Translations under genes and position numbers: made by a program
Assembly (NCBI GenBank): GCA_965223155.1
Contig: CBDCVR010000014.1
Coordinates: forward strand, 512,001-576,000
Direction of reading: 5' to 3'
Length of the DNA: 64,000 nt
From: Candidatus Multivoradales bacterium
GTDB taxonomy: Bacteria; Acidobacteriota; Thermoanaerobaculia; Multivoradales; JAHEKO01
Notes under the pieces: model-generated
Told to the model about the DNA's origin: nothing
The model's database searches: none
The model's input: the letters and a program-made list of their open reading frames with translations, nothing else
Shown: positions 36,841 to 50,974 of the stretch, piece after piece
Numbering within the stretch: the first letter of the stretch is position 1
How the letters are laid out: every line of letters begins with the position of its first letter

Positions 36841-37107
36841 GATGTTCTCTCCTCGTGACAACCGGCGACCGGACGGCCGCCAAAGGCTCACTTGCTCATC
36901 AAGGCAAGGGTGATGCCAGTAGCGACTTGGCGCCGTGGGCCTTGGCAAAGATCCCGTAATCACTACGCCGGGAGCGGTGCCCGCTCGGTTCGAAGCCCGC
37001 GGCGGACCTGGGAATCCCGGGAAATCTTCCCGGTCGTGGACACCGCCGCTGGGGAGGAATGCCCGGGGGCCGAAACGTCGCCGACGCCCACATCCGGAGA
37101 CTCACCG

Positions 37108-39075
37108 CTACCAACTGACGCTCAAGGAAAACTTGTAGACCGTGTGATTGCGAGGAGCGCTCAGGTTCTCGAACTCATATTGGCCCACCACATCGCTCAC
37201 CTCCATGCCTTCGGGAACGAGGTTCAGGCCGACTAGCGCCTGCTCGGCCGAGATCGAAGGTGGCCGCCTATTGTGGTACTCAGTCGCTTTGAGCTCGAGG
37301 GAGACTTTCTCCGCACCAGTGTGATCCTTGGCCAGAACCATCTTGCCACCGATCTCGAACTCGGTTCGAACATCAGCGCTGTCTTCAAACAACCCGCCGC
37401 CGGTCTCGTCGAGACCCTCGAGGGCCTGCTTCCAGTAGTAGTGAGTGTGGAGCTCGATCCGGTCGTTCGGCCGGAACGTGATCGTCGGCCGAACCGTCAG
37501 CCGAAAGTCGAATGATGAGGGGGGCGTGAACTTGCCGGTAATGGCTTCGGAGTCCTCCGCAGCCACGCCTTCCTGCACCGAGAGCTCGGGGCCGGCAGCG
37601 ATGACCGATTCATCCTCCTTGAGTCGAACAGTGATCTCTCGGGTGGCAGGCTTCTCGAAGTCTCCGAAGAGACTGGCGGCAATGCCGAACTGCAGCCGGG
37701 AGCGCTTCTTCAGGATCGCCGGAAGCGTATGGCAGTACTCCTCCTTGTGCTTGGTGATCTGGGGACCCGTGAAGAGCTCATCGCGCATCACCTCTCGATA
37801 GTGGTCGAGATATTTCTGCGTTTGCCGGTCAACCAAGATTTCCCGTCGGCGAGCGTCGTTCTCGTCGCAGAAGGTCTGCCAGCGTCTGGGGCTCGTCTTT
37901 CTCCTCGCTGGATCGTCATAGACCAGGTAGGACAGTCCCCCCTCGAACCAGGGACTCCGTTTACGCTTAAGGTCCCACTCGAGGTTCATTCCCACTCCGC
38001 CTTCATAGCGCTCTGAGATCCCAAGAAAGCTATTGGTGAATCGTTCGAGAAATCCATAGACCTCGAGCCAGTCCTCGAAGTAGTAGTCGTAATTGACGAG
38101 GATCTTGGTGACGTCTTCGGACACCTCATCGTCTCTTAACCGCACCTCGGCACCCGCCGATACCCGGAGTTGTCCCGGGTAGATCCCGCGGCTGAGAGCA
38201 ATGTCGGTGCTTAGCTTGTGATCCTCCTTACCCACGGATTCATTTCCAGCGAAGCTCAGGGAAACCGACCCGGTGAAATTCTGCTGTTGCTGCTTGAGCC
38301 AGGCGTTGAACCCCTTCGCGATCGCACCGGGTTCCAATCGGAGAATTCTCGGTTCGAAACGAGCGACATTCTTCGCTTTGACATCGTCCGCAACTTCCAC
38401 CAAGCTCCGCACCGGGTCGCTCGCCGGAACCAACCGATACAAGAAGCCGAAGCCACTCAAGGAGGGATCCGCCGTTCGAAACTCATAGTTCCCGAGGGCA
38501 CTCAGCCCGGGGCCTTTGACGTGATCGAACTGCACGATCAAGTCGTCGGTCAGGATCACCCGCTCGCCAGTCTCGAGGTCGATCAGGAGGCCGCCGGCAA
38601 CGGCGTCCTTCAGCTTGTCGACGACAGTACGTGCCGCCAGCATGAGCTGGGCCTCGCTACACGGAGAGTCCTTGGAAGCTCCCGACGCGGTCGAACCGGC
38701 TGAGTTGGCTGAACCCTTCTGTTTCTTGTTCGTCGAAGCCTTGCCGTCCGACTTCTGCACCTTCGAGCAGGTCGCATTGAAGCGAGCGATTGACTTCGCC
38801 GTGTCGAGGGTCCCCTTGTACTCCAGACTCGCGCAAGTTCCCTTCAAGTCGACCTTCGCAACTTTGGCCACCGAAGCGGGATTCGAGAACTTGACGGCTA
38901 TGGCGTTTGGAACCACACGATACTCGACCGACTCCGGATATCCGTACTCGGAGACTCTCGATGTCGCCGTAGGGGCTGCATCGGCCGGCGCGACAAAGAC
39001 TAGCGGCAGGATGCAGGAGAGGGTCAGTCCGAAAGCAATTCGGACCCGAACACTTCGAAGAATCGACAAAATCAC
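37108..39075 (-). CDS. exported / outer-membrane protein with C-terminal DUF481-like beta-barrel
   Basis: Signal peptide ...APADA; NYDYY, YGFLERFTNSFLGISERYEGGVG; terminal YKFSLSVSW; SD AAGGAGG. Confidence 0.65.
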   Translation of the reverse strand: MILSILRSVRVRIAFGLTLSCILPLVFVAPADAAPTATSRVSEYGYPESVEYRVVPNAIAVKFSNPASVAKVAKVDLKGTCASLEYKGTLDTAKSIARFNATCSKVQKSDGKASTNKKQKGSANSAGSTASGASKDSPCSEAQLMLAARTVVDKLKDAVAGGLLIDLETGERVILTDDLIVQFDHVKGPGLSALGNYEFRTADPSLSGFGFLYRLVPASDPVRSLVEVADDVKAKNVARFEPRILRLEPGAIAKGFNAWLKQQQQNFTGSVSLSFAGNESVGKEDHKLSTDIALSRGIYPGQLRVSAGAEVRLRDDEVSEDVTKILVNYDYYFEDWLEVYGFLERFTNSFLGISERYEGGVGMNLEWDLKRKRSPWFEGGLSYLVYDDPARRKTSPRRWQTFCDENDARRREILVDRQTQKYLDHYREVMRDELFTGPQITKHKEEYCHTLPAILKKRSRLQFGIAASLFGDFEKPATREITVRLKEDESVIAAGPELSVQEGVAAEDSEAITGKFTPPSSFDFRLTVRPTITFRPNDRIELHTHYYWKQALEGLDETGGGLFEDSADVRTEFEIGGKMVLAKDHTGAEKVSLELKATEYHNRRPPSISAEQALVGLNLVPEGMEVSDVVGQYEFENLSAPRNHTVYKFSLSVSW

Positions 39076-39113
39076 GGCGTCCTCCTTTGAAGAGTCTGGC
39101 GGTTCCCCAAGAG

Positions 39114-39137
39114 AGACGGACCGGTCGCACTCTTTTC
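39114..39137 (-). promoter_or_regulatory. putative cognate-sigma promoter, copy B
   Basis: GAA-N13-GTCCGTCT upstream of 37108..39075. Confidence 0.6.
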
Positions 39138-39282
39138 ACAACGGCGCCGACTCAGAGCACCCAGCCGTCCACGGCACCCCACAGTCAACCGTCCCGGGGA
39201 CCGCAGCCTGCAGCAGCACTCGCGCCCTGCGTCTGGGAGAGACCTGCGACTACGCTCCGCCCGGCGCCGCTGGACTCTCGCC

Positions 39283-40242
39283 CTACCGACTGCCGGCGCC
39301 GGCGACGAGCGCGGAAAAGGCCGCTTCGAGCTCGGGGAGGTCGGCGGCTTCCGGTCGGTCCGCCAGGCGCTCGCCAAGCTCGCTCAGCGCCCCGGAAGCG
39401 GATGGAGGAATTTCCAGTCCCACCCACTGCTCGGGCGCCCGCCGAATCGCTCGGCCCTGGAGGAACTTCAGGTCCCCGGATCCGGCCGCCAAGCGACCGG
39501 CCTCCGCCCACTTGCCCAGGCCTAGATAGCTCGCGTCGGCGGCGTCCTCGAGAAAGCCCGCTGTCTGGCCGCTCAGATCGAGCAAGCTCTCCGGCGCTTC
39601 TCCCGCCTCGAGGCGGTCACGCAGATGACCGTACGAGTAAACGATGTGCTCGGTGAGCTCGAACGAGCCGGCGAGATCGGTGAGCTCGGGCAGTACTTCC
39701 AGGGCCTGGCCGGCGTCGCCGCGCTGGAGCGCGACCTCGAAATCAACCAGGCGCACGCCGAGCCGGAAGGAGCGCTCACGCTCGTCGAGACCGACCGAGA
39801 AGCCGCCCGAGCTTCGGGCGTAGGACCAGCCGGCCGCGTCGTAGACGGTGGAATCCGACGCACTTAGTTGGCGGCCGAGATCCGCGACGTCAAGACCCGC
39901 GCCGGCACCCCTGCGATCCCAGATCCCGTCCAGTAGCGGCGTCCAGAGCAGCATCGCCACGATGGCCGCAGCAGCAGCTCCAGCAACAAGCCAGCCACCA
40001 CGAAAGCCACGGGGCCGGCGAGTGCGGGCCGCGTCAAGATCGGCCGGCTCGGCCCAGGCGGCCGAGCGCCGCGCCTCCTCTTCTTGAAAGCGAAGTGTCT
40101 CGGCGTAGACCTCGTAGCAGCGCTCGCATTCGGACACATGGGTCACCATGGCCTCGCGCTCGCCTGCCTCGAGGCGGCCGTCCACGAAGGCGGCAAGATC
40201 CTCCAGAGTCGGGCATGCCGGGCTGGTTGGCTGGTCGCTCAT
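39283..40242 (-). CDS. zf-HC2 (ZAS) anti-sigma factor with single TM and extracytoplasmic helical domain
   Basis: CPTLEDLAAFVDGRL...HVSECERC; TM WLVAGAAAAAIVAMLLW; directly downstream of the sigma gene. Confidence 0.88.
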   Translation of the reverse strand: MSDQPTSPACPTLEDLAAFVDGRLEAGEREAMVTHVSECERCYEVYAETLRFQEEEARRSAAWAEPADLDAARTRRPRGFRGGWLVAGAAAAAIVAMLLWTPLLDGIWDRRGAGAGLDVADLGRQLSASDSTVYDAAGWSYARSSGGFSVGLDERERSFRLGVRLVDFEVALQRGDAGQALEVLPELTDLAGSFELTEHIVYSYGHLRDRLEAGEAPESLLDLSGQTAGFLEDAADASYLGLGKWAEAGRLAAGSGDLKFLQGRAIRRAPEQWVGLEIPPSASGALSELGERLADRPEAADLPELEAAFSALVAGAGSR

Positions 40243-40289
40243 TTCCTTCCTCTCGCGATCCTCGGCTCGATCACACCACGCCCGTGACG

Positions 40290-41126
40290 TTAGACGGACG
40301 CCTCCGGCGGATTCCCGTCCGGCCCATCGGGAACGTCGTACTCGACGTTCAAGTCCAGCCGGTCCCAATCCAGGATCCGGCGCACGTCGCCCGTCGACAC
40401 ACCCTCCTTCTCCATTCGGGCTCGCAGCGATCGAAGGCTCTTCTCGTAGCGTGTATAGAGCGGTCGCTGCGGCAAGTTGAGCCGGGCCGCGATCTGCGCC
40501 ACCGTGAATCCCTCCCCGAACCGCAGCTTCAGCAACAGACGATCCTCCGCTTCGAGGTCGGCTAGAGCCCGGTCGAGAGCCGCTTCCGCCTGCCGCGCCG
40601 CCTCGCCCATCTCACCGTCCACCACTCTCCGCTCGACGCCGTCCGAGGCCCCTAGAGTCTCGAGAACGTCCGAGCCCTCGAACCGCCTCTTGGTCCGATG
40701 TGGAAGCTGCTCGGCGATCCGGTAGAGCTCGTCCCGATCTTCCTCGAGTCCGAAGTTCGTCTTCAGAATCTCGATCGCCTCGGCCGTGACAAGCCCGTCA
40801 CGGCTGACCAGCGTTTCGAGCTGAACCGCGACCGCGCCCATTCGCTTCGCCGCAGCCGACGGCCGCCACTTGCCCCACTTGGCGATCCGGTAGTCCCGGA
40901 AGAGATTCATGATCACCGTCGTCAAGAACGTGGACAGACTGCTCCTGCCCGCGAACTTCCGCAGCACCGCGTAGTCGTTCTCGATCAGCTTGAGCTTTAC
41001 CGTCGCGTCGAAGTCCTCGGCCTCATCGCCGAAGCAACAGTTCCGCCGGCAGACCGAGGCGATCACGCGCTCGATCAGGGGCAGCTCCCGCTCGAAAACC
41101 TCGCTCGGCTCCATCGGCTCGCTCAC
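40290..41126 (-). CDS. atypical sigma-70 family (ECF-like) sigma factor with extended region 2-4 linker
   Basis: EAEDF...KLIENDYAVLRKFAGRSSLSTFLTTV (region 2); EDRLLLKLRFGEGFTVAQIAARL (region 4 HTH). Confidence 0.88.
   Translation of the reverse strand: MSEPMEPSEVFERELPLIERVIASVCRRNCCFGDEAEDFDATVKLKLIENDYAVLRKFAGRSSLSTFLTTVIMNLFRDYRIAKWGKWRPSAAAKRMGAVAVQLETLVSRDGLVTAEAIEILKTNFGLEEDRDELYRIAEQLPHRTKRRFEGSDVLETLGASDGVERRVVDGEMGEAARQAEAALDRALADLEAEDRLLLKLRFGEGFTVAQIAARLNLPQRPLYTRYEKSLRSLRARMEKEGVSTGDVRRILDWDRLDLNVEYDVPDGPDGNPPEASV
40292..40314 (-). promoter_or_regulatory. putative cognate-sigma promoter, copy A, in the last codons of the sigma gene and facing the anti-sigma
   Basis: GAA-N12-GTCCGTCT. 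Confidence 0.6.
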
Positions 41127-41164
41127 TGGAGCGGATTGTAGCGGGAGGAAGCGTACGAACTAGA

Positions 41165-41187
41165 GAAAGCAAACAACTTGTCCGTCT
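41165..41187 (+). promoter_or_regulatory. putative cognate-sigma promoter, copy C, upstream of the CHAT operon
   Basis: GAA-N12-GTCCGTCT. Confidence 0.6.
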
Positions 41188-41335
41188 CTAACACCCGCAG
41201 AGTTCGAAGCAGAGAAGCACAATGCCGCACCCGCTATCCACCTGTACACTCTCATCATCGACATCGTCTCGAATACACGGAAAGCCTTCGAGTTTCTCTC
41301 GTGATTCATCCCCGTCGTCTCATCAAGAGCGTGCC

Positions 41336-44300
41336 GTGAAGACTCATCCAGGAACGGTAGTCACAATGGCCCTGTGCACAGTGGCGTTATTCGCGAGTTG
41401 CACTCGAGGCACTGGGACCCTGGGTCGCACGATCCCTCTAGACACTGAGTACCGTCCGATATTGCCTCTGCTCACGGTGCCAGCTCAGCACCGCCCCTGC
41501 TCCAACGCATCTGAAGCGCTTGATCCCTTCCAGGCCCGATGTCCCCAGAGAAGTACTCCTGATCTACGCGGAGCAGAATCGGCTGCAGCCAGGCTGCGGG
41601 CACGCTACGGCGCCTCCAAAGATCCCGACGCCCTGTGGGCTCTCGGCCTTTGGAGGCTCCACTGGCTAGCGGATCGAGATGATTTCGACGCAGCGGTTCG
41701 CTTTCTCCAACAGGCTGCGCAGCTTGATCCGGCGAATGCTCAATTGCAGTCGGATCTGGCGGCTGCGCTCTACGCACGAGGCGAATCCTACGACTCGTTT
41801 GACGATGTCCTCGCGGCACTGGCGAGCTGCGAACGGGCGCTCGAACTCGCCCCTGAGCTTGTAGAGGCAAACCTCAACAAGGCGCTGATCCTCGCTCGCT
41901 TGGGTCTTCATGACCAAGCGACCCAGCTCTTGAGCGAAGTCAGTTCAGGGCGCGCTGACCAACGCTCACACGAGTTCGGTGCGCTAGTGACGGCTATGCG
42001 GGGAGGGGCCGCTTCCCAAGGCCGCGACGCTCAGGACAACAGTGCCCAACCTAGTGATTCCCTCTACGACCGCTGGGAAGACTCGCTACGACGAATGAGT
42101 CGAACACGTCCGAAACAGGGCCGACGGACACACCAGGCCCACTTGCTTGGACGCCGGATTGCCGAGTCTCTTCGAGACGACCTCCCGAGCAAGATTACCG
42201 ACGCCGTCATCCAACACGATGCCAGGAAGAGTGTCCTGGCGTTCTTTGAGGCTCGCGACCGCTACCAGGCTCGGCAAGTCCAGGAGGCCTGCGAGTCGTT
42301 TCACTTTGCTCGAACTGGCCTCGCAGGACAGGGAAATCCTCTAACCCACTGGGTGGACTACTACCTGGCCGTATGCAGTTATTGGCAGGGGGACTACCGA
42401 GACGCGAGCCGACAGCTTCGAGAACTTCGACGTCTTGCAACTGAGCACGGGTTCCTTCGCCTGGGCGCTTACGCCGAGTGGATGATCGGCTTGATCGGAG
42501 CCGCAACGGGCGACCTCGATGGAGCTTTCGCTTCTTACGAGCTTGGGCTTTCAGCATTCGACACCTTGGGCCTAGACGAGGAGGCCGCTTTTCTGGGCGT
42601 TCTGACCGCCGACCTTCTGGGTCAACTCGGCGAACGGACCGAGGCCGGCAACCGACTTCTCAACGCACTCGCGCGAAGCCACGCAGTCAAGAACCCACGC
42701 CGGAAACACGCGCTGTTCGACGAAGCCGCCGAACTTGCACGCCGCATGGCCCAACCGCTAGGCGCGACCTATCTGCAGCGGGAGGCTGTGGCACATGCCC
42801 GAGCCACGGAGGATCCAGTGGCAGTGGCTGAAGCAATGCACAGAAGCGCGACAACACTCGCCGCAATTGGCCAGGTCAGCGCAGCGAGCGAACAGCTTCG
42901 AGCTGCAAGTCGGTGGACAGAGCAAATCACCGACCAACACGCCAGAGGCCTGGTCGAGGCAGGCGTCCTGCTGGCCGAGAGCCGAGTCTTGGAAGGGCCG
43001 GATCCTGAGCGCGTCGATCGCCTGGACCAGGCGATTGACGCGTTCTCCAGCCTCTCGAGCAGGTTCCTGCCCGAGCTGCATTTGGAGCGCGGAAGGCTTC
43101 ATGCCGAACTCGGAAATCCGGAAGCGGCTGAGCAGGATCTTCTAGCTGCCGTCCGACTCTACGAGGTCGCCTTGTCCTCAGTGCCGCTGGGAAGGTTCGT
43201 CGACCCTCTTGCGCGAAATCTTGATATCGCCTTACACGAGCTTGCCGCCTTTCAGCTAACAGAGCTTCGTGATCCTGTTCAGGCCCTGCTGACGAGCGAG
43301 CGCGGGGCCCAGGTGGGTCGCCAGGGGCAGGAAGTCTCCTGCGGTTCGGATAGCTGGATGTCGCCCAAAGGGACCGCGATCATCCGATACTCCGTTATCG
43401 GCGACCAAGTACTCGCTCTCGTCGTTCGCGGCAACAGCCAGAAGATCGTACGCCTACAGGCAACGCCGCAAGACATCTCGAACCTGGCTCGCGAACTGGC
43501 ACCGCAGGCAATTGCTAGCGACAGTGCCCGAGAGGGAGCATTGCGCCGCGCTTGGGCCTTGATGTGGCAACCGCTCGAGGCATTTCTTGCTCCTGCCTCA
43601 ACGGTGCTTGTCAGCGCAACACCTCCGATCGACTCCCTACCCTTTCCGGCATTTCAAGACGAGCAAGGCCGGCCTCTGGCGCATAGATACGCGACCGCAG
43701 CTACGCCCGACATTGGAAGTTGGCTTTGTGGCGGCACTTCCCTAGCGACGAGCATCAACGCGGACGACGGGATCGTGGCCGTTGCGGATCCGGAGATCCA
43801 CAAGGCCCTCTCTTGGCTTCCGCGCCTGCCTTCATCGCTACTGGAGGTCGAGCGCCTATCGGAGCTCTATCCCGAAATCGTCGCGCTCATCGGTTCGGAG
43901 GCAACTCCTGGGCGCCTACAAGCGGAGCTTCCGGGAGCCAACATCCTGCACCTGGCGAGTCACACGGCCCTGCCGTCCGCTGTCGGTGGCGCCTTCGTCC
44001 TCGCACCTGAAGAGCCCGGCTATCCAACGGGCCTGCTACGAGCTGCCGATCTGCACCCGGGCCGCCTGTCGAGACTCCAACTTGTCGTCTTGGCTGCTTG
44101 CAACTCAGGGAAGCGCATCGACTTGGAGGACTATCGCGCAGTTCCTCTCGCGACGCCGTTCGTGAGGGCGGCGGTGCCTTTCGTGCTGGTTAGCATCGGC
44201 AGTCTCCAAGATGCAGAGGCGGCCGAATTCATGTACCAGTTCTACAGGGAGCTTCGATCGGATGTCTCCCCAATCGAGGCTCTTCGGCGTGTTCAATTGC

Positions 44301-44386
44301 GAGCCTTCACGGAGAGTCCACGGCCCTCCAACGAATGGCATCTCCAGCTAGTGGTCTCACCATCCAAGGAAAGGAGCTCAATGTGA
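41336..44386 (+). CDS. TPR-CHAT (caspase-HetF) protease, probable lipoprotein (start 41222, 41336 or 41366)
   Basis: TPR segments (SDLAAALY, EANLNKAL); CHAT motifs LP.S..EV, G.EAT, ILHLASH, VVLAACNSG, FY..L; lipobox-like LFASC. Confidence 0.88.
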   Translation: MKTHPGTVVTMALCTVALFASCTRGTGTLGRTIPLDTEYRPILPLLTVPAQHRPCSNASEALDPFQARCPQRSTPDLRGAESAAARLRARYGASKDPDALWALGLWRLHWLADRDDFDAAVRFLQQAAQLDPANAQLQSDLAAALYARGESYDSFDDVLAALASCERALELAPELVEANLNKALILARLGLHDQATQLLSEVSSGRADQRSHEFGALVTAMRGGAASQGRDAQDNSAQPSDSLYDRWEDSLRRMSRTRPKQGRRTHQAHLLGRRIAESLRDDLPSKITDAVIQHDARKSVLAFFEARDRYQARQVQEACESFHFARTGLAGQGNPLTHWVDYYLAVCSYWQGDYRDASRQLRELRRLATEHGFLRLGAYAEWMIGLIGAATGDLDGAFASYELGLSAFDTLGLDEEAAFLGVLTADLLGQLGERTEAGNRLLNALARSHAVKNPRRKHALFDEAAELARRMAQPLGATYLQREAVAHARATEDPVAVAEAMHRSATTLAAIGQVSAASEQLRAASRWTEQITDQHARGLVEAGVLLAESRVLEGPDPERVDRLDQAIDAFSSLSSRFLPELHLERGRLHAELGNPEAAEQDLLAAVRLYEVALSSVPLGRFVDPLARNLDIALHELAAFQLTELRDPVQALLTSERGAQVGRQGQEVSCGSDSWMSPKGTAIIRYSVIGDQVLALVVRGNSQKIVRLQATPQDISNLARELAPQAIASDSAREGALRRAWALMWQPLEAFLAPASTVLVSATPPIDSLPFPAFQDEQGRPLAHRYATAATPDIGSWLCGGTSLATSINADDGIVAVADPEIHKALSWLPRLPSSLLEVERLSELYPEIVALIGSEATPGRLQAELPGANILHLASHTALPSAVGGAFVLAPEEPGYPTGLLRAADLHPGRLSRLQLVVLAACNSGKRIDLEDYRAVPLATPFVRAAVPFVLVSIGSLQDAEAAEFMYQFYRELRSDVSPIEALRRVQLRAFTESPRPSNEWHLQLVVSPSKERSSM

Positions 44387-45231
44387 TCAAGAAAGCGAAC
44401 AAGGGATCGAAGCTTACGATTGACTTCGTCGGACTCTTCGCGTTCGTACAAGTCGAGGACGCGATAGTGGTGCTAGGAATGGCACCTCATCGATTCCTTA
44501 GTCTCGGGCTGTGCAAGCACGACCCAGTGGTGATTTTTCAATATCCAGCGCTCCGGACGGCAGACGAAGCGCGATCTCACTGGAGCTTCTCCACCTTCTT
44601 CCAGGACACGAAGAACCCCAATGGGAAACATCAGGCGCTCGGCGTTTGGCCTCTGGAAGGCAAAGAGCTCAGCATCCAAGATGCTCCCAACACCTGCCCA
44701 AACATCGATTCCACCGAGATTTTCGAGTTGGACATCAAGGGCCCTGTCGATCTGGCCAAGTGGCTCTCATCTACTCTTCCCCAAGGACTTGGCTGCAGAT
44801 GGATCCTGCAAGGCGGACGACTCTCCGTTCCTACTTTGACCGACGAAGATTGGTACTTGTATCCGAAGGATGACGCTAGTGGCCCCAAGGTGAGTCCTTT
44901 CGCGCAAGTGGTCCGCTGGGAACTCGTCCGTGAAGAAGAAAATACGACCGCAATCATCACGGCCCGGACGAACTCGTCCGGACGAAGCGAAAGACTCGCC
45001 ATCAAGCCCGACGGACAGATCGCCGCCAGCAATCTCTGTCCCTTCGACTCCGCTGCGGCAAACAAGTCCTTCGATCCCGACATCAGCGCCTACTACGAGC
45101 TCACCAGGAGACCCCTCCCGGCGAAGCAGAGATCAGTTTTGCATAAACGGCCCACCGGGGGTGGAATGCCGACCCGACCCAACCTGAGCGCCTGTCCACC
45201 GGTGCTCTTCCGCATCGCTTCGAAGAACTAG
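44383..45231 (+). CDS. hypothetical beta-rich protein translationally coupled to CHAT
   Basis: GTGA overlap with the CHAT stop; SD AAGGAG; LTIDFVGLFAFV...HDP...SNLCP...CPP. Confidence 0.8.
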   Translation: MIKKANKGSKLTIDFVGLFAFVQVEDAIVVLGMAPHRFLSLGLCKHDPVVIFQYPALRTADEARSHWSFSTFFQDTKNPNGKHQALGVWPLEGKELSIQDAPNTCPNIDSTEIFELDIKGPVDLAKWLSSTLPQGLGCRWILQGGRLSVPTLTDEDWYLYPKDDASGPKVSPFAQVVRWELVREEENTTAIITARTNSSGRSERLAIKPDGQIAASNLCPFDSAAANKSFDPDISAYYELTRRPLPAKQRSVLHKRPTGGGMPTRPNLSACPPVLFRIASKN

Positions 45232-45236
45232 AACAG

Positions 45237-46076
45237 ATGACGCGAAGACTTCGAATCGCCACAATCGTAGCTGTTCCGCTGACCATTGGCCTACTCGCTC
45301 TTGGGCGCGGAGGCGAGCCGCAGGAGGTCCCCATGAGCGAATCCGACACGCTGTCCTTCGCCCCGATTGAAGATCTACGCGAAGACTTCCGCGTAGTGGA
45401 CCCCGATGGCGTTCTTGACTCGAGTGCTTGGCCGCCAGAAGCGCTCATCAATCTCAACCCTTTGGCTTCTATGGTCGCCGTCGGGCCCAAGGTCGCGCTG
45501 AGCGCAGCCCATGTATTCTGGAAGCCGGACAAGATACTTCTTCCGAAGATTGGGGGAGTCACAGGCAGTTGCGATTTGCACCCCGACTACATGGAGCTAC
45601 GAAAGGAGTGCTCCGCCTGTACGGGGAGCTGCTCCCACTGCGATCCCGATGCGCAGGCTGCCGTCGATGTTGCCATCTGCTCCTCTAGCGAGTGGGATCT
45701 TGAGCCTGTAGCCGTTTCTCTTGATGCCTACATCGACAAGGGCGACACCCTCGTCTTGAGCGGTTTCGGCTGCACAGAGTGCAAGGGCGTCGTTGCGCTG
45801 GATCTCGAGTTCTCGTACGGAAAGGCAACAGTCTACTCCACGAATGGCGTCGGCAAGACGAAGGGAGGTTCCGCTCTCTGCGCTTCGGACAGCGGCGGAG
45901 GCGTCTACCAACTCTCCAAGGACACCAAGGGCAAGGTTGTTGGTATCGGCTCTGGATTGATTGATTGCAAGAACAGAACCTCGCGAGTTGCGCTTTTGGG
46001 CCATGCCCTGAACCGAAAGTGGATCGAGGCCTGGGCAGACGAGCACGAGGAGATTCTTGGAGTCAACCTCGACTGA
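45237..46076 (+). CDS. trypsin-like (S1) serine protease with N-terminal signal/anchor
   Basis: LSAAH (His), HPDY, VDVAI (Asp), GFG, LCASDSGGG (Ser). Confidence 0.8.
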   Translation: MTRRLRIATIVAVPLTIGLLALGRGGEPQEVPMSESDTLSFAPIEDLREDFRVVDPDGVLDSSAWPPEALINLNPLASMVAVGPKVALSAAHVFWKPDKILLPKIGGVTGSCDLHPDYMELRKECSACTGSCSHCDPDAQAAVDVAICSSSEWDLEPVAVSLDAYIDKGDTLVLSGFGCTECKGVVALDLEFSYGKATVYSTNGVGKTKGGSALCASDSGGGVYQLSKDTKGKVVGIGSGLIDCKNRTSRVALLGHALNRKWIEAWADEHEEILGVNLD

Positions 46077-46191
46077 TCGGCTGACCCTCGTTCATTCCCG
46101 TCGACTGATGGCTGCCAAGCCATCCACCCTTCGGCGGACCCCGGGGCCCGGCCCACGCTTCACCACCTCGCGGATCAGAACCACTCCCCCG

Positions 46192-46214
46192 GAATTCCGC
46201 CAACGCGTCCGTCC
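46192..46214 (+). promoter_or_regulatory. putative cognate-sigma promoter, copy D, upstream of the SGNH gene
   Basis: GAA-N12-GTCCGTCC. Confidence 0.55.
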
Positions 46215-46286
46215 AGTCCTCTAGCTACCCGACGCCGGGCCGGCCGAAGGCGCCGGCGCGGAACGCCGACTAGAGAGGAGGGCCAC

Positions 46287-47078
46287 GTGCCAAACTTGAC
46301 CTGGAAGCAGAAGCGTCAGCTTCTCAAGTTCTTCGCCCCGTCCATCAAGCAGCATCCGGACTGGCCGGTGGTGATCAGCGAAGGAGATTCGTGGTTCTCC
46401 TTCCCGGCCCACCACAACGTGATCGATCATCTCGACACGATGGCCGGACGCAGTATCTCGCTGCTGCGCCTCGAACGAAGTGGTGACGAGCTACTTTCGA
46501 TCTTGCACGGGAAACAGACAACCAAGCTGGCCAAGCGCTTGCGCGACTTCCCTGTCCAGGCGCTTCTCTTGAGCGGAGGCGGCAACGACATCCTCGGGGC
46601 CGGCTTCGGCGAACTCCTCAAAGATGTGCCGACCGGAAGCGGCGAGCAGTTCCTCGACAAGCCCCTGGCTCGCTGCCGCATCCAGCAATTGAAGTACGCC
46701 TATCTGGAGCTCGCCAGGATTCGAGACCGCAACCGCCCCGGCTGCGTCATCTACGCTCATGGCTACGACTACGCCATCCCCTCCGGCAAGCCTGCCAAGA
46801 TGTGGGGACTCAAGTTTGGGCCCTGGCTCAAACCGCACTTCGATAAGCACGGCGCTTCAGCCGAGGACGGCCGGCTGATCATCCGCTGGCTGATCGACGA
46901 GTTCAACAAGATGCTCGAATCGGTCGCGGACCGCGCGACGGACTTCGTCCACGTGGATCACCGAGGCACGCTCTCCGCGACGGATTGGAACGACGAGATC
47001 CACCCGAAACGAGCAGCGTTCCGCAAGATCGCCGAGAACTTCGCCAAGCCGCTTCGCGGCCAGTTCGGTTCCTGGTAG
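46287..47078 (+). CDS. SGNH/GDSL hydrolase
   Basis: EGDSW, SGGGND, HGYDY, NDEIHP; SD GAGGAGG. Confidence 0.88.
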   Translation: MPNLTWKQKRQLLKFFAPSIKQHPDWPVVISEGDSWFSFPAHHNVIDHLDTMAGRSISLLRLERSGDELLSILHGKQTTKLAKRLRDFPVQALLLSGGGNDILGAGFGELLKDVPTGSGEQFLDKPLARCRIQQLKYAYLELARIRDRNRPGCVIYAHGYDYAIPSGKPAKMWGLKFGPWLKPHFDKHGASAEDGRLIIRWLIDEFNKMLESVADRATDFVHVDHRGTLSATDWNDEIHPKRAAFRKIAENFAKPLRGQFGSW

Positions 47079-47206
47079 AGGGCACGGTCGCTCCCGGCGC
47101 ACCCTTCGAGAGGTCTGGGCCGCAAGGCTAGCCTCGCCCACGAGCCGCCCACTCGAAATGGTAAGGTTCTGACAAAGTTCATCGGATCCATTTGGAGGAA
47201 CGGGTC

Positions 47207-49531
47207 ATGGAAGTGAGCTCGCACCTGCGAGAGCCAGCGGCTGCCGTAGGCTCCACAATTCAACGTCACCTCCTGACGCTTATTACCGGCGTGCTGGGGT
47301 TCTGCACACTGTTCTGGATCCCACAGGTTCACAACCTCCTGTTCGAGCTTCCTTCTGCGATCAAGGACGGAGAGTTCGAAGTTCGGCTGGCTTGGTTCGG
47401 TTTTCTTACGGTCGCCATCTTCTTCGACGTCAACCTTCTGAAGCTGATCGACCCGGTGCGGGACAGTTTCAAGGGGCCCATCCGTACGCTTTCTCGATCG
47501 CCGGTCCTGGCCGGATGGATCGTGTCGGGAGGATTCGTTCTGATCGCCTTCACACTTTTCTTCCTGACCGCAGATCCGAGCCACGGCAGCCATCGGCACG
47601 GCCTCGTGAATGCCGCTCGCCTCTACTTGCCCATCCTTCTCCTAGTCGCCGCGGCGATTTGTGCGCCGATCCGGCATCACTTGTCGAAGGTTCCCTTTCC
47701 CGGCGGCGCTCGAAAGCGAGAGACCTTGCTGCGCCTCTTTGTGGCCGTCGCCGGACTCTACTTCGCCGGATGGGCTGTCTGGGGTCTGGCCGATAACGTC
47801 TCGTGGATCACCTACCGCACCTACTCGATCTGGGCCTTACTCCAGCTTGTCTTCATGTTGGTTGCCGTCGGCCGCGCCCTAGATGTTCTCTCCTCATCGG
47901 GCTTTGCGTTGGCTCGCCCCCTAGCCTTGGGCGTAGCCCTTCTCCTGCCGTTTTCCTGGAAACCGACCGCCATCGGGACGCCGGCGGCTTCGGCAACCCC
48001 GCAAACCGCAGTCGGAGCTACTCCGAGCCACGAAACCGAAGATTCCCGGCCGGCCGCCTCACTCGCCACACGATGGTTCGACGCAATCGACAGGAAGCTC
48101 GACTCGCTGCCGCCGAACGGCCCGGCCGTCGTTGTGGCCGCCAGCGGCGGCGGATCTCGTGCCGCCCTATTCAGCGCTCTGGTCTTCGAGTCGCTGCGCC
48201 GAACCGAAATCGAAGGCGCTTCGCTCGCGGACCGGATACTACTGATCAGCAGCGTCTCCGGAGGGAGTCTCGCGAGCAGCTACTTCGCGACTCAAACCGA
48301 CCTGCGGAAACGAACCGGCAGCGGAGGGCCCTATTCCTGGCAGCACAGTCGCGCAGAGGACCAGCACAAAAGGGTGCGCCAGGAGGCGCCGGCCCTTGTT
48401 GCCAGGGCCGCGGACGCAAGCCTGAGCAACGCGTTCCAAGAGCTCGCCGACTCTCCAGCGCCCTTGCCAGATTGGGTCCTCCAGAGCCGGTTCGTGGACG
48501 AGATGAATACGGACTTCATTGCCCCGATCCTGGTTGGAATTCTGGACCCGAGACAACGGCGTGGCCAGAGCCTCAGCAGGTTCTGGGAGCGAGAATTCGA
48601 GTGGTCGGAGTTCTCCACCAGCAGCGACATCCGACTCGGTCCGGACCTACCTCCGCCACCCCTCCTGATACTGAATGCAACGGCGGTCGAGTTCGGGACC
48701 AGGTTGGCGATCGGATTTCCACCACTACCGCCAGGCCTCCTTGCGAGCCGAAACGCTCACCTCGACAAATCGGAGCGTCCCACCTCCCTGAGCGACCACG
48801 GCGCCTACGAGATTTCCCTTGCCGACGCCGTCCGACTGTCGGCGAGTTTCCCTTGGAGCGTGCCAGTCGGGCGTCTCACACTCGAGAGTGCCCGTCACAT
48901 TCTCGACGGTGGCGTTCTCGACGTTACCGGCCTAGACACGCTGACAGGTGTGCTTGCCGGGCTCGACGCTTGGAGCAAGGAGGACGGTGGTGATCCTCTT
49001 GACTTGGAGCTTCAGCGGCGAGCCTCGTCGATCACCGAAAAACTCCAGGCAAGAGGAATAGTGGTTGTCGTGATCGACTCCGGCGCTCAGCCATCCTCCA
49101 AAGGCGAGCCCGCCGGCAGGCTGGGCGAAGTGATCAATCCCGTCCATGCCCTTCGCAGGAGCGCCTTCCTCCGAGCGGCGGAAGACAAGCAGGCCCATCT
49201 CGACGACCTCGAGAAGCTGGACTTCGTTTCGTGGCTCGAGTCGTTCCGTTGCGGTGACGACCGCATCATCACCTCTTGGGCTCTCGGTCCCCAAGACAAG
49301 GCTCGCGTCTTCGTGCGCTTCCTCGGCCAGGAGCCGAAGAAGCGTGACGGCTTCCTGGAGAAGATCGAAGCTCATCGGCAAGCCCAAAGACGCGACGAGC
49401 TCCAGGAGTTGATCCAGAAGACAGCGCAGTTGGATCAGGCGTTTCGGAGAGCGTTTGTCCAGATCGATCCGAAGGTTCTTGACCTGGAGCAACCTCTGAT
49501 ACCCATCCAGCCCCTCCCAGAGATTCCGTGA
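47207..49531 (+). CDS. multi-TM patatin/cPLA2-like phospholipase
   Basis: About 7 N-terminal TMs; ASGGGSRAA, SVSGGS, LSASFP, LDGG. Confidence 0.85.
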   Translation: MEVSSHLREPAAAVGSTIQRHLLTLITGVLGFCTLFWIPQVHNLLFELPSAIKDGEFEVRLAWFGFLTVAIFFDVNLLKLIDPVRDSFKGPIRTLSRSPVLAGWIVSGGFVLIAFTLFFLTADPSHGSHRHGLVNAARLYLPILLLVAAAICAPIRHHLSKVPFPGGARKRETLLRLFVAVAGLYFAGWAVWGLADNVSWITYRTYSIWALLQLVFMLVAVGRALDVLSSSGFALARPLALGVALLLPFSWKPTAIGTPAASATPQTAVGATPSHETEDSRPAASLATRWFDAIDRKLDSLPPNGPAVVVAASGGGSRAALFSALVFESLRRTEIEGASLADRILLISSVSGGSLASSYFATQTDLRKRTGSGGPYSWQHSRAEDQHKRVRQEAPALVARAADASLSNAFQELADSPAPLPDWVLQSRFVDEMNTDFIAPILVGILDPRQRRGQSLSRFWEREFEWSEFSTSSDIRLGPDLPPPPLLILNATAVEFGTRLAIGFPPLPPGLLASRNAHLDKSERPTSLSDHGAYEISLADAVRLSASFPWSVPVGRLTLESARHILDGGVLDVTGLDTLTGVLAGLDAWSKEDGGDPLDLELQRRASSITEKLQARGIVVVVIDSGAQPSSKGEPAGRLGEVINPVHALRRSAFLRAAEDKQAHLDDLEKLDFVSWLESFRCGDDRIITSWALGPQDKARVFVRFLGQEPKKRDGFLEKIEAHRQAQRRDELQELIQKTAQLDQAFRRAFVQIDPKVLDLEQPLIPIQPLPEIP

Positions 49532-49673: not shown

Positions 49674-49746
49674 GAAATAGGGTGACAGGATACCTATCTC
49701 CTGCAGCCGGCCAACCGGAGAAATAGGTATCCTGTCACCCTATTTC
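49674..49746. repeat. REP/REPIN-like inverted doublet
   Basis: GAAATAGGGTGACAGGATACCTATCTC (49674-49700) and an inverted copy at 49720-49746 (26/27 identical); each unit is itself a stem-loop. Confidence 0.9.
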
Positions 49747-50946
49747 TGGGCACTCCGCGACGAAGGGCTCGGTCACGAGGACTTCGACCGGAACGCCATC
49801 GATCGCGGCTGGAACCTGAAGCAGGGCCTCCGGAGCCCGGGTGGAAACGAAGACTTTGAACGCTGTCTCCGCGTCGCGATCACCGGCGCCGATGCCCATG
49901 CCGAGCACTCCTGGGATCGCGAGGATCCCGTCTTCGGTGCGCTTCTGGATCGCTTCGAGCTTCCTCATCGCCCGGTGGCGCAACCGTGCTTCGCGGTCAA
50001 CGGCAAGGGTCGCCGACTCCGGCTCGGGCTCGGCGCTACAGCCCACCAGCGAAACCTTGCCCCGCGGCTTCACACCCCGAAGCGCCTTGAGCACGCCGTT
50101 CATGGGCGACACCAGAGTGACCTTGGTGCCGAGCAGCGTGCGCGCGCCGGCGAACAAGAGGCCAACCGCCGCCGGGCAGCGCTTCCGATCCACGTAGACG
50201 ACGGCGCCCGAGTCACCCGGCTCACTGAAGGGCTTGTCTCTACGGCCAAAGATGACCATCTGGTTCGTGAACCGGGCGTCCTTGGTTTCCTCGGATCCAC
50301 ACTCAACCGACATTCCGACCGTGACGCTGACATTCAAGGCCTCCACCGTGCCGCGCGTCAAGCCGCTGGTGCGGCCGCTCTTCTTGACCGCCAATCCGAC
50401 CTTGGGCGGCACAACGCCTGTACCCGGAACGCCAATACCGACGATGTGGCCGTTCGACTTCACCATGCCGTCCCGCACCTGAGCCAGAGCCGCGTCCGCC
50501 TTGTTGCGTCCACCGCCGAACTTTATCTTCTTGAACTGATAGAGGTCGGCTACAAGATCGTTTTCCGCCACCCGGCAGCCCGAGTCGATCATGCCGGGCT
50601 GGCTGATCGCCTCGCCGGCGCGCGCCTGGTTCCTGCGGGCAATCACGTGGTTGTTCGAGAGAATGTGCAGCAAGCCGTTCTTCTCGACAAGCGCCCCAAG
50701 GGTGCCCGAACAGCACGCCACGAAGGAGATGTTCTCGACATTGCCTCCCGAGGTGCCCAGGCTGACCGGAGGCTTCTGGTTCTTCTGATGCCTCTTGGGC
50801 CCCGCCGCGGCCTGTGGCGCTGTCGCGGTCAGAGCAACGACAGCAGCCAGGGCGATAGCAACGCCTCGGGCCGAGGCCACCGCCCAAGGCCTCGCCTGCC
50901 GGCCTTGCGACTCTCGAAGCTGCGTTGGAAGCTCAGCACAACGCAT
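49735..50946 (-). CDS. secreted chymotrypsin-like (Nal1-type S1) serine protease
   Basis: GTLG, LSNNHV, ADAAL, KSGRTSGLTRG, PGDSGA; its stop codon lies inside the REP-like repeat. Confidence 0.88.
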   Translation of the reverse strand: MRCAELPTQLRESQGRQARPWAVASARGVAIALAAVVALTATAPQAAAGPKRHQKNQKPPVSLGTSGGNVENISFVACCSGTLGALVEKNGLLHILSNNHVIARRNQARAGEAISQPGMIDSGCRVAENDLVADLYQFKKIKFGGGRNKADAALAQVRDGMVKSNGHIVGIGVPGTGVVPPKVGLAVKKSGRTSGLTRGTVEALNVSVTVGMSVECGSEETKDARFTNQMVIFGRRDKPFSEPGDSGAVVYVDRKRCPAAVGLLFAGARTLLGTKVTLVSPMNGVLKALRGVKPRGKVSLVGCSAEPEPESATLAVDREARLRHRAMRKLEAIQKRTEDGILAIPGVLGMGIGAGDRDAETAFKVFVSTRAPEALLQVPAAIDGVPVEVLVTEPFVAECPEIG

Positions 50947-50974
50947 GGTCTGATTGTACAGAATCCTGGAGAAC

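What the first reader, a model, noticed from the sequence alone, without database searches (positions are those of the whole stretch)
37108..49531. Sigma / ZAS anti-sigma / TPR-CHAT island tied together by a shared promoter motif
SEEN: GAA-N12/13-GTCCGTC(T/C) occurs four times, each in sense orientation just upstream of a transcription unit of this island. Copies are at 40314-40292 (-, in the last codons of the sigma gene, facing the anti-sigma), 39137-39114 (-, 655-aa barrel protein), 41165-41187 (+, CHAT-hypothetical-trypsin) and 46192-46214 (+, SGNH, with patatin following). The sigma gene itself has a housekeeping-type TACAAT 8 nt before its GTG. KNOWN: CGTC is a typical ECF -10 element. 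In type III-E CRISPR systems a TPR-CHAT protease (Csx29) releases a sigma factor by cutting its inhibitor Csx30. INFERENCE: a CRISPR-independent circuit in which the sigma drives its own anti-sigma (negative feedback), a caspase-like protease and membrane-active hydrolases. This could be an undescribed envelope-sensing or conflict regulon.
Basis: partly seen in the sequence, partly recalled or inferred. Interest (0 to 1): 0.88.

Follow-up and report, generated by a model that had tools for sequence, protein, structure and literature searches.

The report
Split sigma/anti-sigma/CHAT protease switch
An acidobacterial gene island holds a sigma factor, its membrane inhibitor and an exported caspase-like protease wired together by one shared promoter, a split version of the DdvS/DdvA switch that controls phage defence in Myxococcus.

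Summary
All four motif copies lie at the stated coordinates. Each is in sense orientation, 34-72 nt before a start codon. A better description is GGAAW-N13-CCGTCT(AA).

A weight matrix built only from relatives' anti-sigma promoters ranks the window's anti-sigma site first in the whole 4.0-Mb genome. In the 64-kb window it finds only these four sites above 16 bits.

In 80 related loci from Acidobacteriota and Gemmatimonadota:
- The motif precedes the anti-sigma gene in 38 of 74 loci, against about 1 expected.
- It precedes the sigma gene in 1 of 80.
- It precedes most separately transcribed TPR-CHAT genes.

DdvA is a zinc anti-sigma fused to a periplasmic TPR-CHAT.
- Here the TPR-CHAT is a separate gene and is exported.
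- In 5 of the 80 related loci it is fused to the anti-sigma.
- DdvA is its nearest solved homologue (E 1.6e-33).

A fourth conserved gene (the 298-aa family) follows CHAT. Cleavage of the anti-sigma by CHAT, and any defence role, remain inferences. I rate this a new variant of a known kind.

The parts
37108..39075 (-).
   Evidence: ORF. N-terminal signal-like hydrophobic stretch and a C-terminal W. No Pfam or NCBIfam family. Only a sub-threshold DUF481 match, E 0.14. No PDB sequence match.
39112..39139 (-). Promoter-like site GTGAAAAG-N-GGTCCGTCTCT before the 655-aa gene
   Evidence: 18.2 bits with the relatives-only matrix. Lies 38 nt before the GTG, which follows AAGGAGG.
39283..40242 (-). 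Anti-sigma factor, 319 aa: zinc anti-sigma domain, one membrane helix, all-helical periplasmic domain
   Evidence: zf-HC2 E 1.3e-5. AF2 model with pLDDT 80.8: helices 13-62, a membrane helix from 84 (hydrophobic windows from residue 80), helical domain 154-316. The N-domain resembles RsiW, RslA, MucA and RseA at Z 5.4-6.5. Family of 660 representatives at E<=1e-30.
40290..40316 (-). Promoter-like site GGGAAT-N13-CCGTCTAA inside the last codons of the sigma gene, facing the anti-sigma
   Evidence: 25.2 bits, the best hit in the 4.0-Mb genome. The same placement recurs in relatives.
40290..41126 (-). Sigma factor, 278 aa: sigma2 and sigma4 with a conserved insert of about 100 aa between them
   Evidence: TIGR02937 E 6e-17 over residues 9-237. 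Sigma70_r4 E 4e-8, r2 below the cut-off. No region 3 in 15 members at E<=1. 629 homologues at E<=1e-10.
41136..41141 (-). -10-like hexamer TACAAT 9 nt before the sigma GTG (possible leaderless transcript)
   Evidence: Read from the sequence. Similar hexamers in 4 of 25 relatives' sigma genes. No full sigma-70 promoter by the scan.
41163..41189 (+). Promoter-like site GAGAAA-N13-CCGTCTCT before the TPR-CHAT operon
   Evidence: 17.3 bits. Equivalent sites stand before CHAT genes in relatives.
41222..44386 (+). Exported TPR-CHAT caspase-like protease, 1054 aa
   Evidence: CHAT E 1.4e-35 plus TPR families. Hydrophobic segment at residues 44-60, then a conserved juxtamembrane motif. H914 and C960 are invariant in 31 sequences. 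The family profile hits DdvA chain 8rot_B at E 1.6e-33.
44335..45231 (+). 298-aa protein of an unnamed family that follows TPR-CHAT genes
   Evidence: No Pfam family. An HMM built without it hits it at E 5.8e-9 (Z = 8) and hits 21 ORFs in the 80 loci. For the eight whose coordinates I compared with the CHAT ORF, the ORF lies directly after CHAT.
45237..46076 (+). 279-aa secreted protein, possibly a trypsin-fold protease
   Evidence: Signal-like N-terminus, AAHV and DSGGG motifs. Trypsin match only E 0.054, below the cut-off.
46190..46216 (+). Promoter-like site CGGAAT-N13-CCGTCCAG before the SGNH gene
   Evidence: 16.4 bits. Lies 72 nt before the GTG at 46287.
46287..47078 (+). SGNH/GDSL-like hydrolase, 263 aa
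   Evidence: Lipase_GDSL_2 E 2.5e-4, below the cut-off. GDS motif. A homologue lies in L029.
47192..49531 (+). Membrane-anchored patatin-like phospholipase, 779 aa
   Evidence: Patatin E 2.6e-7, 31.5 bits against a cut-off of 27.7. Several hydrophobic segments in the first 260 residues. No motif and no predicted terminator between it and the SGNH gene.

Best explanation
This is a split relative of the Myxococcus DdvS/DdvA switch.

Components (shown by sequence and comparison):
- A sigma-70-family factor with only sigma2 and sigma4, plus a family-specific insert of about 100 residues.
- A single-pass zinc anti-sigma factor encoded just downstream, which presumably holds the sigma inactive.
- A membrane-anchored, extracytoplasmic TPR-CHAT protease with an intact His-Cys dyad, encoded divergently, with a conserved partner gene (the 298-aa family).

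Promoters. When free, the sigma would read promoters of the form GGAAW-N13-CCGTCT. In the window these stand before four units:
- the anti-sigma gene, but not the sigma gene;
- the CHAT, 298-aa and trypsin-like operon;
- a 655-aa exported protein;
- the SGNH and patatin pair.

Inferred mechanism (not shown). An extracytoplasmic signal activates the TPR-CHAT protease. It clips the periplasmic side of the anti-sigma in trans, acting as a site-1 protease. An RseP-type protease then removes the membrane part and the sigma is released. The sigma then raises CHAT (positive loop), the anti-sigma (reset) and a lineage-variable cargo of exported hydrolases.
For: Motif and regulon:
- Four sites at the stated places.
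- The relatives-only matrix puts the anti-sigma site first genome-wide and finds only these four sites above 16 bits in the window.
- In 80 loci found with the sigma alignment, distinct hits above 15 bits number 135, against 14 in the reversed loci.
- The motif lies before the anti-sigma in 38 of 74 loci, with about 0.9 expected. Leaving out 7 loci that share contigs with the training set gives 32 of 67.
- It lies before the sigma gene in 1 of 80 loci.
- Before separately transcribed CHAT genes the scores are 19.8, 21.3, 20.2, 21.6, 18.5, 18.5, 17.9, 17.1 and 16.4. Four more score 13.0-14.6.
- Two Longimicrobium loci (L084, L092) carry the same -10 variant CCATC before both the anti-sigma and the CHAT gene.

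Link between CHAT and the pair:
- 30 of 46 loci with at least 4 kb on both sides have a full-length CHAT ORF, 28 of them within 4 kb.
- 23 of the 80 loci have one adjacent: 9 divergent, 8 directly after the anti-sigma, 5 fused, 1 unclear.
- The fused ORFs are 1061-1163 aa. Four of the five carry zf-HC2, TPR and CHAT by Pfam.
- 28 of 31 sigma-linked CHAT proteins have a hydrophobic segment before a shared juxtamembrane motif.
- The catalytic H914 and C960 are invariant.
- DdvA (8rot_B) is the only natural CHAT protein among the 60 listed PDB matches of the family profile, at E 1.6e-33.
- An RseP-type M50 protease is encoded in G000.

Published model (passages read through 'find'): DdvA as a possible self-cleaving site-1 protease followed by RseP (PMC11506125), and four DdvS promoters mapped by 5' RACE (PMC6061681).
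Against: - No transcription start, expression or binding data exist. No RNA run holds the locus.
- At 16-18 bits the matrix is barely above background genome-wide, with 38 hits against 28 above 16 bits.
- About half of the anti-sigma genes (36 of 74) and several divergent CHAT genes (L051 and L087, both under 7 bits) show no site with this matrix.
- The top 150 relatives of the anti-sigma are all 223-533 aa, with no CHAT fusion.
- In the fused forms the anti-sigma profile covers only positions 2 to about 170 of 310. The helical periplasmic domain of the stand-alone form is therefore not the part shared with them.
- 16 of 46 well-flanked loci have no CHAT gene, so the pair can work without one nearby.
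- The sigma is not detectably related to DdvS, and the promoter differs from GTAA-N16-CGT (PMC6061681).
- Even for DdvA, CHAT cleavage is a hypothesis in the paper.
Confidence: 0.62

Rival explanations
1. The motif and regulon are real, but TPR-CHAT is only a target or cargo of the sigma and not its activator. The anti-sigma would be inactivated by another route: its own helical periplasmic sensor domain with a DegS- or Prc-type protease, or oxidation of the zinc site. CHAT would then act on other extracytoplasmic substrates, together with the trypsin-like, SGNH and patatin enzymes.
For: - The stand-alone anti-sigma has its own conserved periplasmic domain of about 165 residues, with a four-helix-bundle, sensor-like shape at Z 6-7.
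- 16 of 46 well-flanked loci lack a CHAT gene.
- No fusion appears among the top 150 anti-sigma relatives.
- Cargo under the motif elsewhere is rich in other proteases, kinases and phosphatases.
Against: Fusion of the anti-sigma domain to TPR-CHAT next to the same sigma family in 5 loci, and the frequent operon or divergent adjacency, argue for a role in the same signalling step. The fused relative DdvA is an anti-sigma by experiment (PMC6061681, PMC11506125).
Confidence: 0.25
2. The shared sequence is read by another regulator, for example the canonical ECF sigma encoded at 34747-35349 or a DNA-binding protein. Its presence in the sigma gene's last codons would then reflect a conserved protein tail (…ASV-stop) and not a promoter.
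For: - Close homologues end in (P)EASV or GVSV, which the -10 element encodes.
- An ordinary ECF sigma lies 5 kb away.
- CGTC-type -10 elements are common to many ECF groups (general knowledge).
Against: - The motif keeps its place before the anti-sigma when the tail differs or when it lies after the stop, as in L024, L029, L036 and L039.
- It occurs in non-coding DNA before CHAT and cargo genes.
- It follows this sigma family across two phyla, with 135 hits against 14 in the control.
- Its -10 variant changes in step within loci.
Confidence: 0.08
3. The four copies are a chance cluster in G+C-rich DNA and there is no common regulation.
For: The heptamer is not enriched. 2 of 100 shuffles reach three N12 matches in the window. 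The genome-wide matrix background is high.
Against: Placement, orientation, clustering in 7.1 kb, the independent matrix result and conservation across 80 loci.
Confidence: 0.03

Closest known systems
DdvS/DdvA of Myxococcus xanthus (PMC6061681, PMC11506125; passages read through 'find')
   Same: [quoted passage not shown]
- A periplasmic TPR-CHAT with a His-Cys dyad.
- Several sigma-dependent promoters clustered in one island.
- A gene of unknown function and a peptidase gene after the TPR-CHAT gene.
- DdvA is the nearest solved homologue of this CHAT family, E 1.6e-33.
- Fused DdvA-type proteins stand next to homologues of this sigma in 5 of 80 loci.
   Different: - Here TPR-CHAT is a separate gene, and the anti-sigma carries its own helical periplasmic domain.
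- The sigma is about 278 aa with a conserved insert and shows no detectable relation to DdvS.
- The promoter is GGAAW-N13-CCGTCT, not GTAA-N16-CGT.
- It stands before the anti-sigma, not before the sigma. DdvS drives its own gene.
- The cargo is exported hydrolases. No CBASS or CRISPR gene was found among the eight island proteins by PADLOC.
- The phyla are Acidobacteriota and Gemmatimonadota. The paper reports DdvA-like proteins in Myxococcota and one Comamonas; its table S7 could not be seen.
Regulated intramembrane proteolysis of anti-sigma factors (RseA with DegS and RseP; RsiW; the MucA type)
   Same: A class I anti-sigma domain fold (Z 5.4-6.5 to RsiW, RslA, MucA and RseA), a single membrane helix, and an M50 site-2 protease in the genome.
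   Different: The proposed site-1 protease would be a caspase-like TPR-CHAT encoded in the regulon itself, not a DegS- or Prc-type serine protease. This was not tested here.
Type III-E CRISPR craspase: Cas7-11 with Csx29 (TPR-CHAT), Csx30 and an ECF-type sigma (PMC10028731, abstract in the listing)
   Same: A TPR-CHAT protease genetically tied to a sigma factor and its inhibitor.
   Different: Craspase is cytoplasmic and RNA-guided. This CHAT protein is membrane-anchored and extracytoplasmic. No craspase or separase chain is among the 60 listed PDB matches of the profile, whereas DdvA is.

Membership tests
ECF (group 4) sigma factors | Only sigma2 and sigma4 domains, no region 3 | tested here: met
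   TIGR02937 E 6e-17. Region 4 is above the cut-off and region 2 below it in the window protein, but region 2 is found in 13 of 15 members. No Sigma70_r3 in 15 members at E<=1.
ECF (group 4) sigma factors | Compact size (about 170-220 aa) with a short variable linker | tested here: not met
   278 aa. About 100 residues lie between the domains, with an invariant WGKWRPSA block.
ECF (group 4) sigma factors | Co-encoded cognate anti-sigma factor | tested here: met
   zf-HC2 protein directly downstream. Homologue present in 74 of 80 loci.
ECF (group 4) sigma factors | Own-type promoter upstream of the sigma gene (autoregulation; usual, not universal) | tested here: not met
   No site above 12.4 bits upstream of the sigma in the window. 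A site above 15 bits in 1 of 80 loci.
ECF (group 4) sigma factors | Transcription from the -35 (AA-rich) / -10 (CGT) bipartite promoter | not testable with these tools
   The sequence form fits. No transcript data.
DdvS/DdvA-type sigma/anti-sigma | [quoted passage not shown] | tested here: met
   Weak match to the DdvA N-domain 8rlz, E 0.22.
DdvS/DdvA-type sigma/anti-sigma | Periplasmic TPR-CHAT fused to the anti-sigma | tested here: not met
   Separate genes in the window. Fused in 5 of 80 related loci.
DdvS/DdvA-type sigma/anti-sigma | TPR-CHAT homologous to that of DdvA, with the His-Cys dyad | tested here: met
   Profile against 8rot_B, E 1.6e-33. H914 and C960 invariant.
DdvS/DdvA-type sigma/anti-sigma | Sigma orthologous to DdvS | tested here: inconclusive
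   No chain named DdvS at E<=0.01 with the protein or the profile. I did not confirm under which name DdvS is filed in the bank.
DdvS/DdvA-type sigma/anti-sigma | Regulon of anti-phage systems (CBASS, type III-B CRISPR) | tested here: not met
   None of the 8 island proteins matches PADLOC. The rest of the window was not scanned for cas genes.
Type III-E craspase module (Csx29/Csx30/sigma) | Cytoplasmic TPR-CHAT bound to Cas7-11 | tested here: not met
   The CHAT protein has an N-terminal hydrophobic anchor, like 28 of 31 relatives. No cas family among the island proteins.
Type III-E craspase module (Csx29/Csx30/sigma) | Csx30-type soluble inhibitor of the sigma | not tested
   No Csx30 sequence or profile was at hand. 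The inhibitor here is a membrane zf-HC2 protein.

The most novel reading that the evidence does not exclude
A family of exported, membrane-tethered caspase-like TPR-CHAT proteases acts in trans as the dedicated site-1 protease of a large anti-sigma family. That family has 660 sequence clusters at E<=1e-30 and 438 loci in species genomes. The sigma induces both its activator (CHAT) and its inhibitor (the anti-sigma), so this would be a self-amplifying, self-resetting proteolytic switch. It would release an arsenal of envelope-directed proteases and lipases, as a CRISPR-independent programmed response to phage or competitor attack in Acidobacteriota and Gemmatimonadota. The natural split would prove the trans-cleavage step that is still only proposed for DdvA.
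Probability: 0.3. Interest if true: 0.8.

Novelty: new variant of a known kind. Interest (0 to 1): 0.62.

Why it matters
- **The open DdvA question.** It is not known whether the periplasmic CHAT domain is the site-1 protease, or what signal it senses. In the split form, protease and substrate are two proteins. They can be expressed, mutated and mixed separately, so the trans-cleavage idea becomes directly testable.
- **Distribution.** The comparative data widen the module from a few Myxococcota to hundreds of loci in Acidobacteriota and Gemmatimonadota, two abundant soil phyla that are poorly studied.
- **New parts.** The work defines a sigma family with a conserved insert, its likely promoter, and a fourth conserved gene of unknown function.
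- **Wiring.** The sigma appears to drive its inhibitor but not itself, which is unusual for ECF-type systems. With CHAT in the regulon, this predicts pulse-like behaviour.

Tried and rejected
Led nowhere:
- **Fold of the anti-sigma model.** Foldseek against the PDB gave no match at E<=0.001. VIA-align gave only generic helical-bundle matches for the periplasmic domain at Z 6-7. No fold assignment is made, and DdvA's scaffold did not appear.
- **PADLOC** on the eight island proteins found nothing.
- **PDB sequence searches.** The 655-aa protein gave nothing. The 279-aa protein gave only an esterase at E 0.064.
- **RNA evidence.** No RNA holder is listed for 38900-46400. There are four DNA holders from one study.
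- **Fusions.** I looked among the top 150 anti-sigma relatives and found none. Lower ranks are not visible.
- **Literature.** Searches for an ECF group tied to CHAT found only the DdvS/DdvA papers and the craspase paper. The main text of the ECF re-classification paper (PMC7826278) has no occurrence of 'CHAT'. Its supplementary tables, and table S7 of PMC11506125, were closed, so this sigma family or the Acidobacteriota fusions may be listed there.
- **Extra genome sites.** C14:296141 (21.5 bits), C13:1000269 (20.4), C14:67389 (19.8) and C15:715690 (17.8) precede a 219-aa membrane protein, a secreted LamG/FIMAH protein and a 68-aa membrane protein; the gene after C14:67389 was not family-scanned. 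I leave them as candidates only.

Considered and rejected:
- The Csx29/Csx30 reading, because the CHAT protein is exported.
- A group-3 (FliA-like) sigma, which is JGI's name for some homologues, because no region 3 is found.

Caveats on counts:
- The 80 loci are the best 80 of 438.
- 7 of them share contigs with the 20 loci, from which the matrix was trained.
- ORF starts are the most upstream start codon, so distances to starts are approximate.
- The tally of 28 of 41 genomes includes weak sigma4-only matches. 22 of the 40 relatives have E<=1e-39.
- That tally counts G005, an unpublished genome. No locus was taken from it and no other claim rests on it.

Full report
**Observation**

The window is G000:C14:512001-576000, from a 4.0-Mb genome with 66% G+C. 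By the names of its closest sigma homologues, the organism is a Thermoanaerobaculia-class member of Acidobacteriota.

- A 655-aa exported protein (37108-39075, -).
- A 319-aa zf-HC2 anti-sigma with one membrane helix (39283-40242, -).
- A 278-aa sigma (40290-41126, -).
- On the other strand, a 1054-aa TPR-CHAT protein (41222-44386).
- A 298-aa protein with no family (44335-45231).
- A 279-aa secreted protein with a sub-threshold trypsin match (45237-46076).
- An SGNH-like protein (46287-47078).
- A membrane-anchored patatin-like protein (47192-49531).

Shuffles predict about 0.6. The bare heptamer is not enriched. Genome-wide there are 25 matches, four of them inside 7.1 kb. Each copy is in sense orientation, 34-72 nt before a start codon. 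The copy at 40290-40316 overlaps the last codons and the stop of the sigma gene.

**Is it more than chance?**

I looked for the sigma in 40 related genomes. 22 have a strong homologue, often two to five. In 20 fetched loci an anti-sigma homologue follows the sigma in 18, and a CHAT gene is nearby in 8.

The sigma/anti-sigma junction carries a conserved bipartite element in 14 of the 18 loci. The AA-rich -35 part is G(G/C)GAAW. After about 13 nt comes (G/T)CCGTC(T/C)AA.

I built a two-block weight matrix from these 14 sites, with no G000 sequence. Results on G000:
- The window's anti-sigma site is the best hit in the whole genome, at 25.2 bits.
- The other three sites score 18.2, 17.3 and 16.4 bits.
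- No other distinct site in the 64-kb window exceeds 16 bits.

Genome-wide the matrix is not specific at that level. There are 38 hits above 16 bits against 28 in the reversed genome. The three weaker sites therefore stand on clustering, placement and conservation, not on score.

**Conservation across two phyla**

A scan of one genome per species with the sigma alignment found 438 loci. The best 80 come from Thermoanaerobaculia, Vicinamibacterales, Holophagae, Solibacteraceae, Gemmatimonadaceae and Longimicrobium.

In these 1.2 Mb the matrix finds 135 distinct sites above 15 bits, against 14 in the reversed sequences. The sites fall as follows:
- Before the anti-sigma gene: 38 of 74 loci, with about 0.9 expected. 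After dropping seven loci that overlap the training set, 32 of 67.
- Before the sigma gene: 1 of 80 loci.
- Before separately transcribed CHAT genes: nine sites of 16.4-21.6 bits and four of 13.0-14.6 bits. Some have no site at all, for example L051 and L087.

Two Longimicrobium loci (L084, L092) carry the variant -10 CCATC before both the anti-sigma gene and the CHAT gene. That is what one expects if one co-evolving sigma reads both.

The conserved ASV-stop tail of close sigma homologues is encoded by the -10 element. The element keeps its place where the tail differs or the stop comes earlier. I therefore read the tail as a by-product of the promoter.

**What the proteins are**

*Sigma.* It has sigma4 above threshold and sigma2 below it. 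TIGR02937 matches across residues 9-237, with an insert of about 100 residues. That insert holds an invariant WGKWRPSA block. No region 3 is found in 15 members. Against solved structures only sigma4 aligns, with FliA best at 7.5e-7, and no DdvS chain appears. It is an ECF-like sigma of a family of its own, with 629 homologues at E<=1e-10. Because its region 2 fails Pfam's cut-off, it may have escaped the ECF re-classification, which required both Pfam domains (PMC7826278, passages read through 'find'). The supplements were closed.

*Anti-sigma.* In an AF2 model with pLDDT 80.8 it has three parts:
- a class I anti-sigma domain (Z 5.4-6.5 to RsiW, RslA, MucA and RseA);
- a membrane helix;
- a confident all-helical periplasmic domain at 154-316, which has only generic bundle matches.

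Its family is large, with 660 representatives at E<=1e-30, and the top 150 are all 223-533 aa.

*TPR-CHAT protein.* It has a hydrophobic segment at residues 44-60 that ends in a lipobox-like FASC. A juxtamembrane motif (RP.L.LLT....PC) follows. 28 of 31 sigma-linked CHAT proteins share the hydrophobic segment, including the fused ones. It is therefore extracytoplasmic. H914 and C960 are invariant. The family profile hits the 991-aa CHAT-domain chain 8rot_B at E 1.6e-33. I take that chain to be DdvA by its length and the positions of its dyad. It is the only natural CHAT protein among the 60 listed matches.

**The link between CHAT and the sigma/anti-sigma pair**

Of 46 loci with at least 4 kb on both sides, 30 hold a full-length CHAT ORF, and 28 hold one within 4 kb. 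Among all 80 loci, 23 have it adjacent:
- 9 divergent from the sigma, as in the window;
- 8 directly after the anti-sigma on the same strand;
- 5 fused to the anti-sigma as one 1061-1163-aa ORF;
- 1 unclear.

Four of the five fused ORFs carry zf-HC2, TPR and CHAT by Pfam. That fused form is the architecture of DdvA.

According to the passages I read, DdvA of M. xanthus is a zinc anti-sigma with a periplasmic TPR-CHAT. It holds the ECF sigma DdvS. The authors propose it to be clipped by its own CHAT domain in trans before RseP acts, but this is not shown. It was reported as confined to Myxococcota and one Comamonas (PMC11506125). DdvS reads four promoters, GTAA-N16-CGT, mapped by 5' RACE, including its own (PMC6061681). 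The window's locus is thus a split relative.

One further parallel: after ddvA come a gene of unknown function and a peptidase gene (PMC11506125, figure legend). After the window's CHAT gene come the 298-aa gene and a possible trypsin-like gene.

The 298-aa protein belongs to a family that recurs next to CHAT. An HMM built without the window protein hits it at E 5.8e-9, alone among the eight island proteins. It also hits 21 ORFs in the 80 loci. For the eight whose coordinates I compared with the CHAT ORF, the ORF lies directly after CHAT. I could not compare it with the Myxococcus gene.

**Cargo**

Apart from the anti-sigma, CHAT and the 298-aa family, the genes under the motif vary. In the window they are the 655-aa protein, the SGNH-like protein and the patatin-like protein. 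Elsewhere they include:
- a cluster of seven ORFs, of which the one scanned is a Ser/Thr kinase;
- a SpoIIE phosphatase;
- two caspase-domain proteins;
- a papain-like protease;
- TPR proteins and small lipoproteins.

None of the window's eight proteins matches PADLOC. A defence or conflict role is an analogy with DdvS/DdvA, not a result.

**Mechanism, and what is shown**

Shown by sequence and comparison:
- the parts and their topology;
- the conserved promoter-like element and where it sits;
- the genomic coupling of TPR-CHAT with the pair, including the fusions;
- an intact catalytic dyad;
- an RseP-type protease in the genome.

Inferred:
- that this sigma reads the element;
- that CHAT cleaves the anti-sigma;
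- that RseP follows.

If so, the wiring gives a positive loop through CHAT and a reset through the anti-sigma, which would give pulse-like behaviour.

The sigma gene itself has only a -10-like TACAAT 9 nt before its GTG. That would give a leaderless transcript. Similar hexamers occur in 4 of 25 relatives' sigma genes, and the scan finds no full sigma-70 promoter.

The main rival is that CHAT is cargo and not an activator. The stand-alone anti-sigma has its own conserved periplasmic domain, and a third of well-flanked loci lack a CHAT gene.

**Limits**

- No transcript data exist.
- Gene calls in the loci are crude ORFs.
- The loci are related to each other, so the counts overstate independence.

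**Verdict**

The right comparator is DdvS/DdvA.
- This is a new, split and widespread variant of a known kind, with a distinct sigma family, a likely promoter and a fourth conserved gene.

Noticed in passing
window 34747-35899 (+): An ordinary ECF sigma (200 aa; Sigma70_r2 E 1.4e-16, r4_2 E 1.5e-15). An overlapping 185-aa ORF with no family follows it and may be its anti-sigma. It lies 5 kb from the island and no island-type motif is near it.
   Followed up: partly
window 35959-36963 (-): A 334-aa protein with a cyclic-nucleotide-binding domain and a PilZ domain, at the edge where G+C falls from about 0.67 to about 0.63.
   Followed up: no
window 36000-64000: The whole right-hand part of the window has lower G+C (0.58-0.63 against 0.66-0.69 to the left). 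It holds an IS110-family transposase at 53422-54483. The island may be part of a larger acquired region.
   Followed up: no
window 49735-52345 (-): A second trypsin-like protein (403 aa; Nal1_C and Trypsin matches near the cut-off). Upstream of it on the minus strand lies a 456-aa ORF with no family (50975-52345), convergent with the patatin gene. No island-type motif lies before them.
   Followed up: partly
G000 C14:296114-296141 (-), C13:1000242-1000269 (-), C14:67389-67417 (+), C15:715663-715690 (-): Four further strong matrix hits (21.5, 20.4, 19.8 and 17.8 bits) in intergenic-looking places. They precede a 219-aa membrane protein, a secreted LamG/FIMAH protein, a membrane protein and a 68-aa membrane protein. 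They may be distant regulon members.
   Followed up: partly
L021 4718-4745 and L022 3533-3560 (inside the sigma genes): A 17.5-bit matrix hit inside the sigma coding region. It coincides with the codons of the invariant KWGKWRPS block, so it is a coding look-alike and not a promoter. This is a warning for matrix scans in this family.
   Followed up: yes
L025, L027, L030, L037, L053, L060, L061, L065, L073: Many genomes carry two sigma paralogues of this family in tandem before one anti-sigma gene. In L025, L027 and L030 the anti-sigma has lost the zinc-binding Cys/His residues.
   Followed up: no
L088 (1296-nt contig): A sigma/anti-sigma junction with the motif lies on a contig labelled Patescibacteria. 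On so short a contig this is more likely a binning error than a true occurrence.
   Followed up: no
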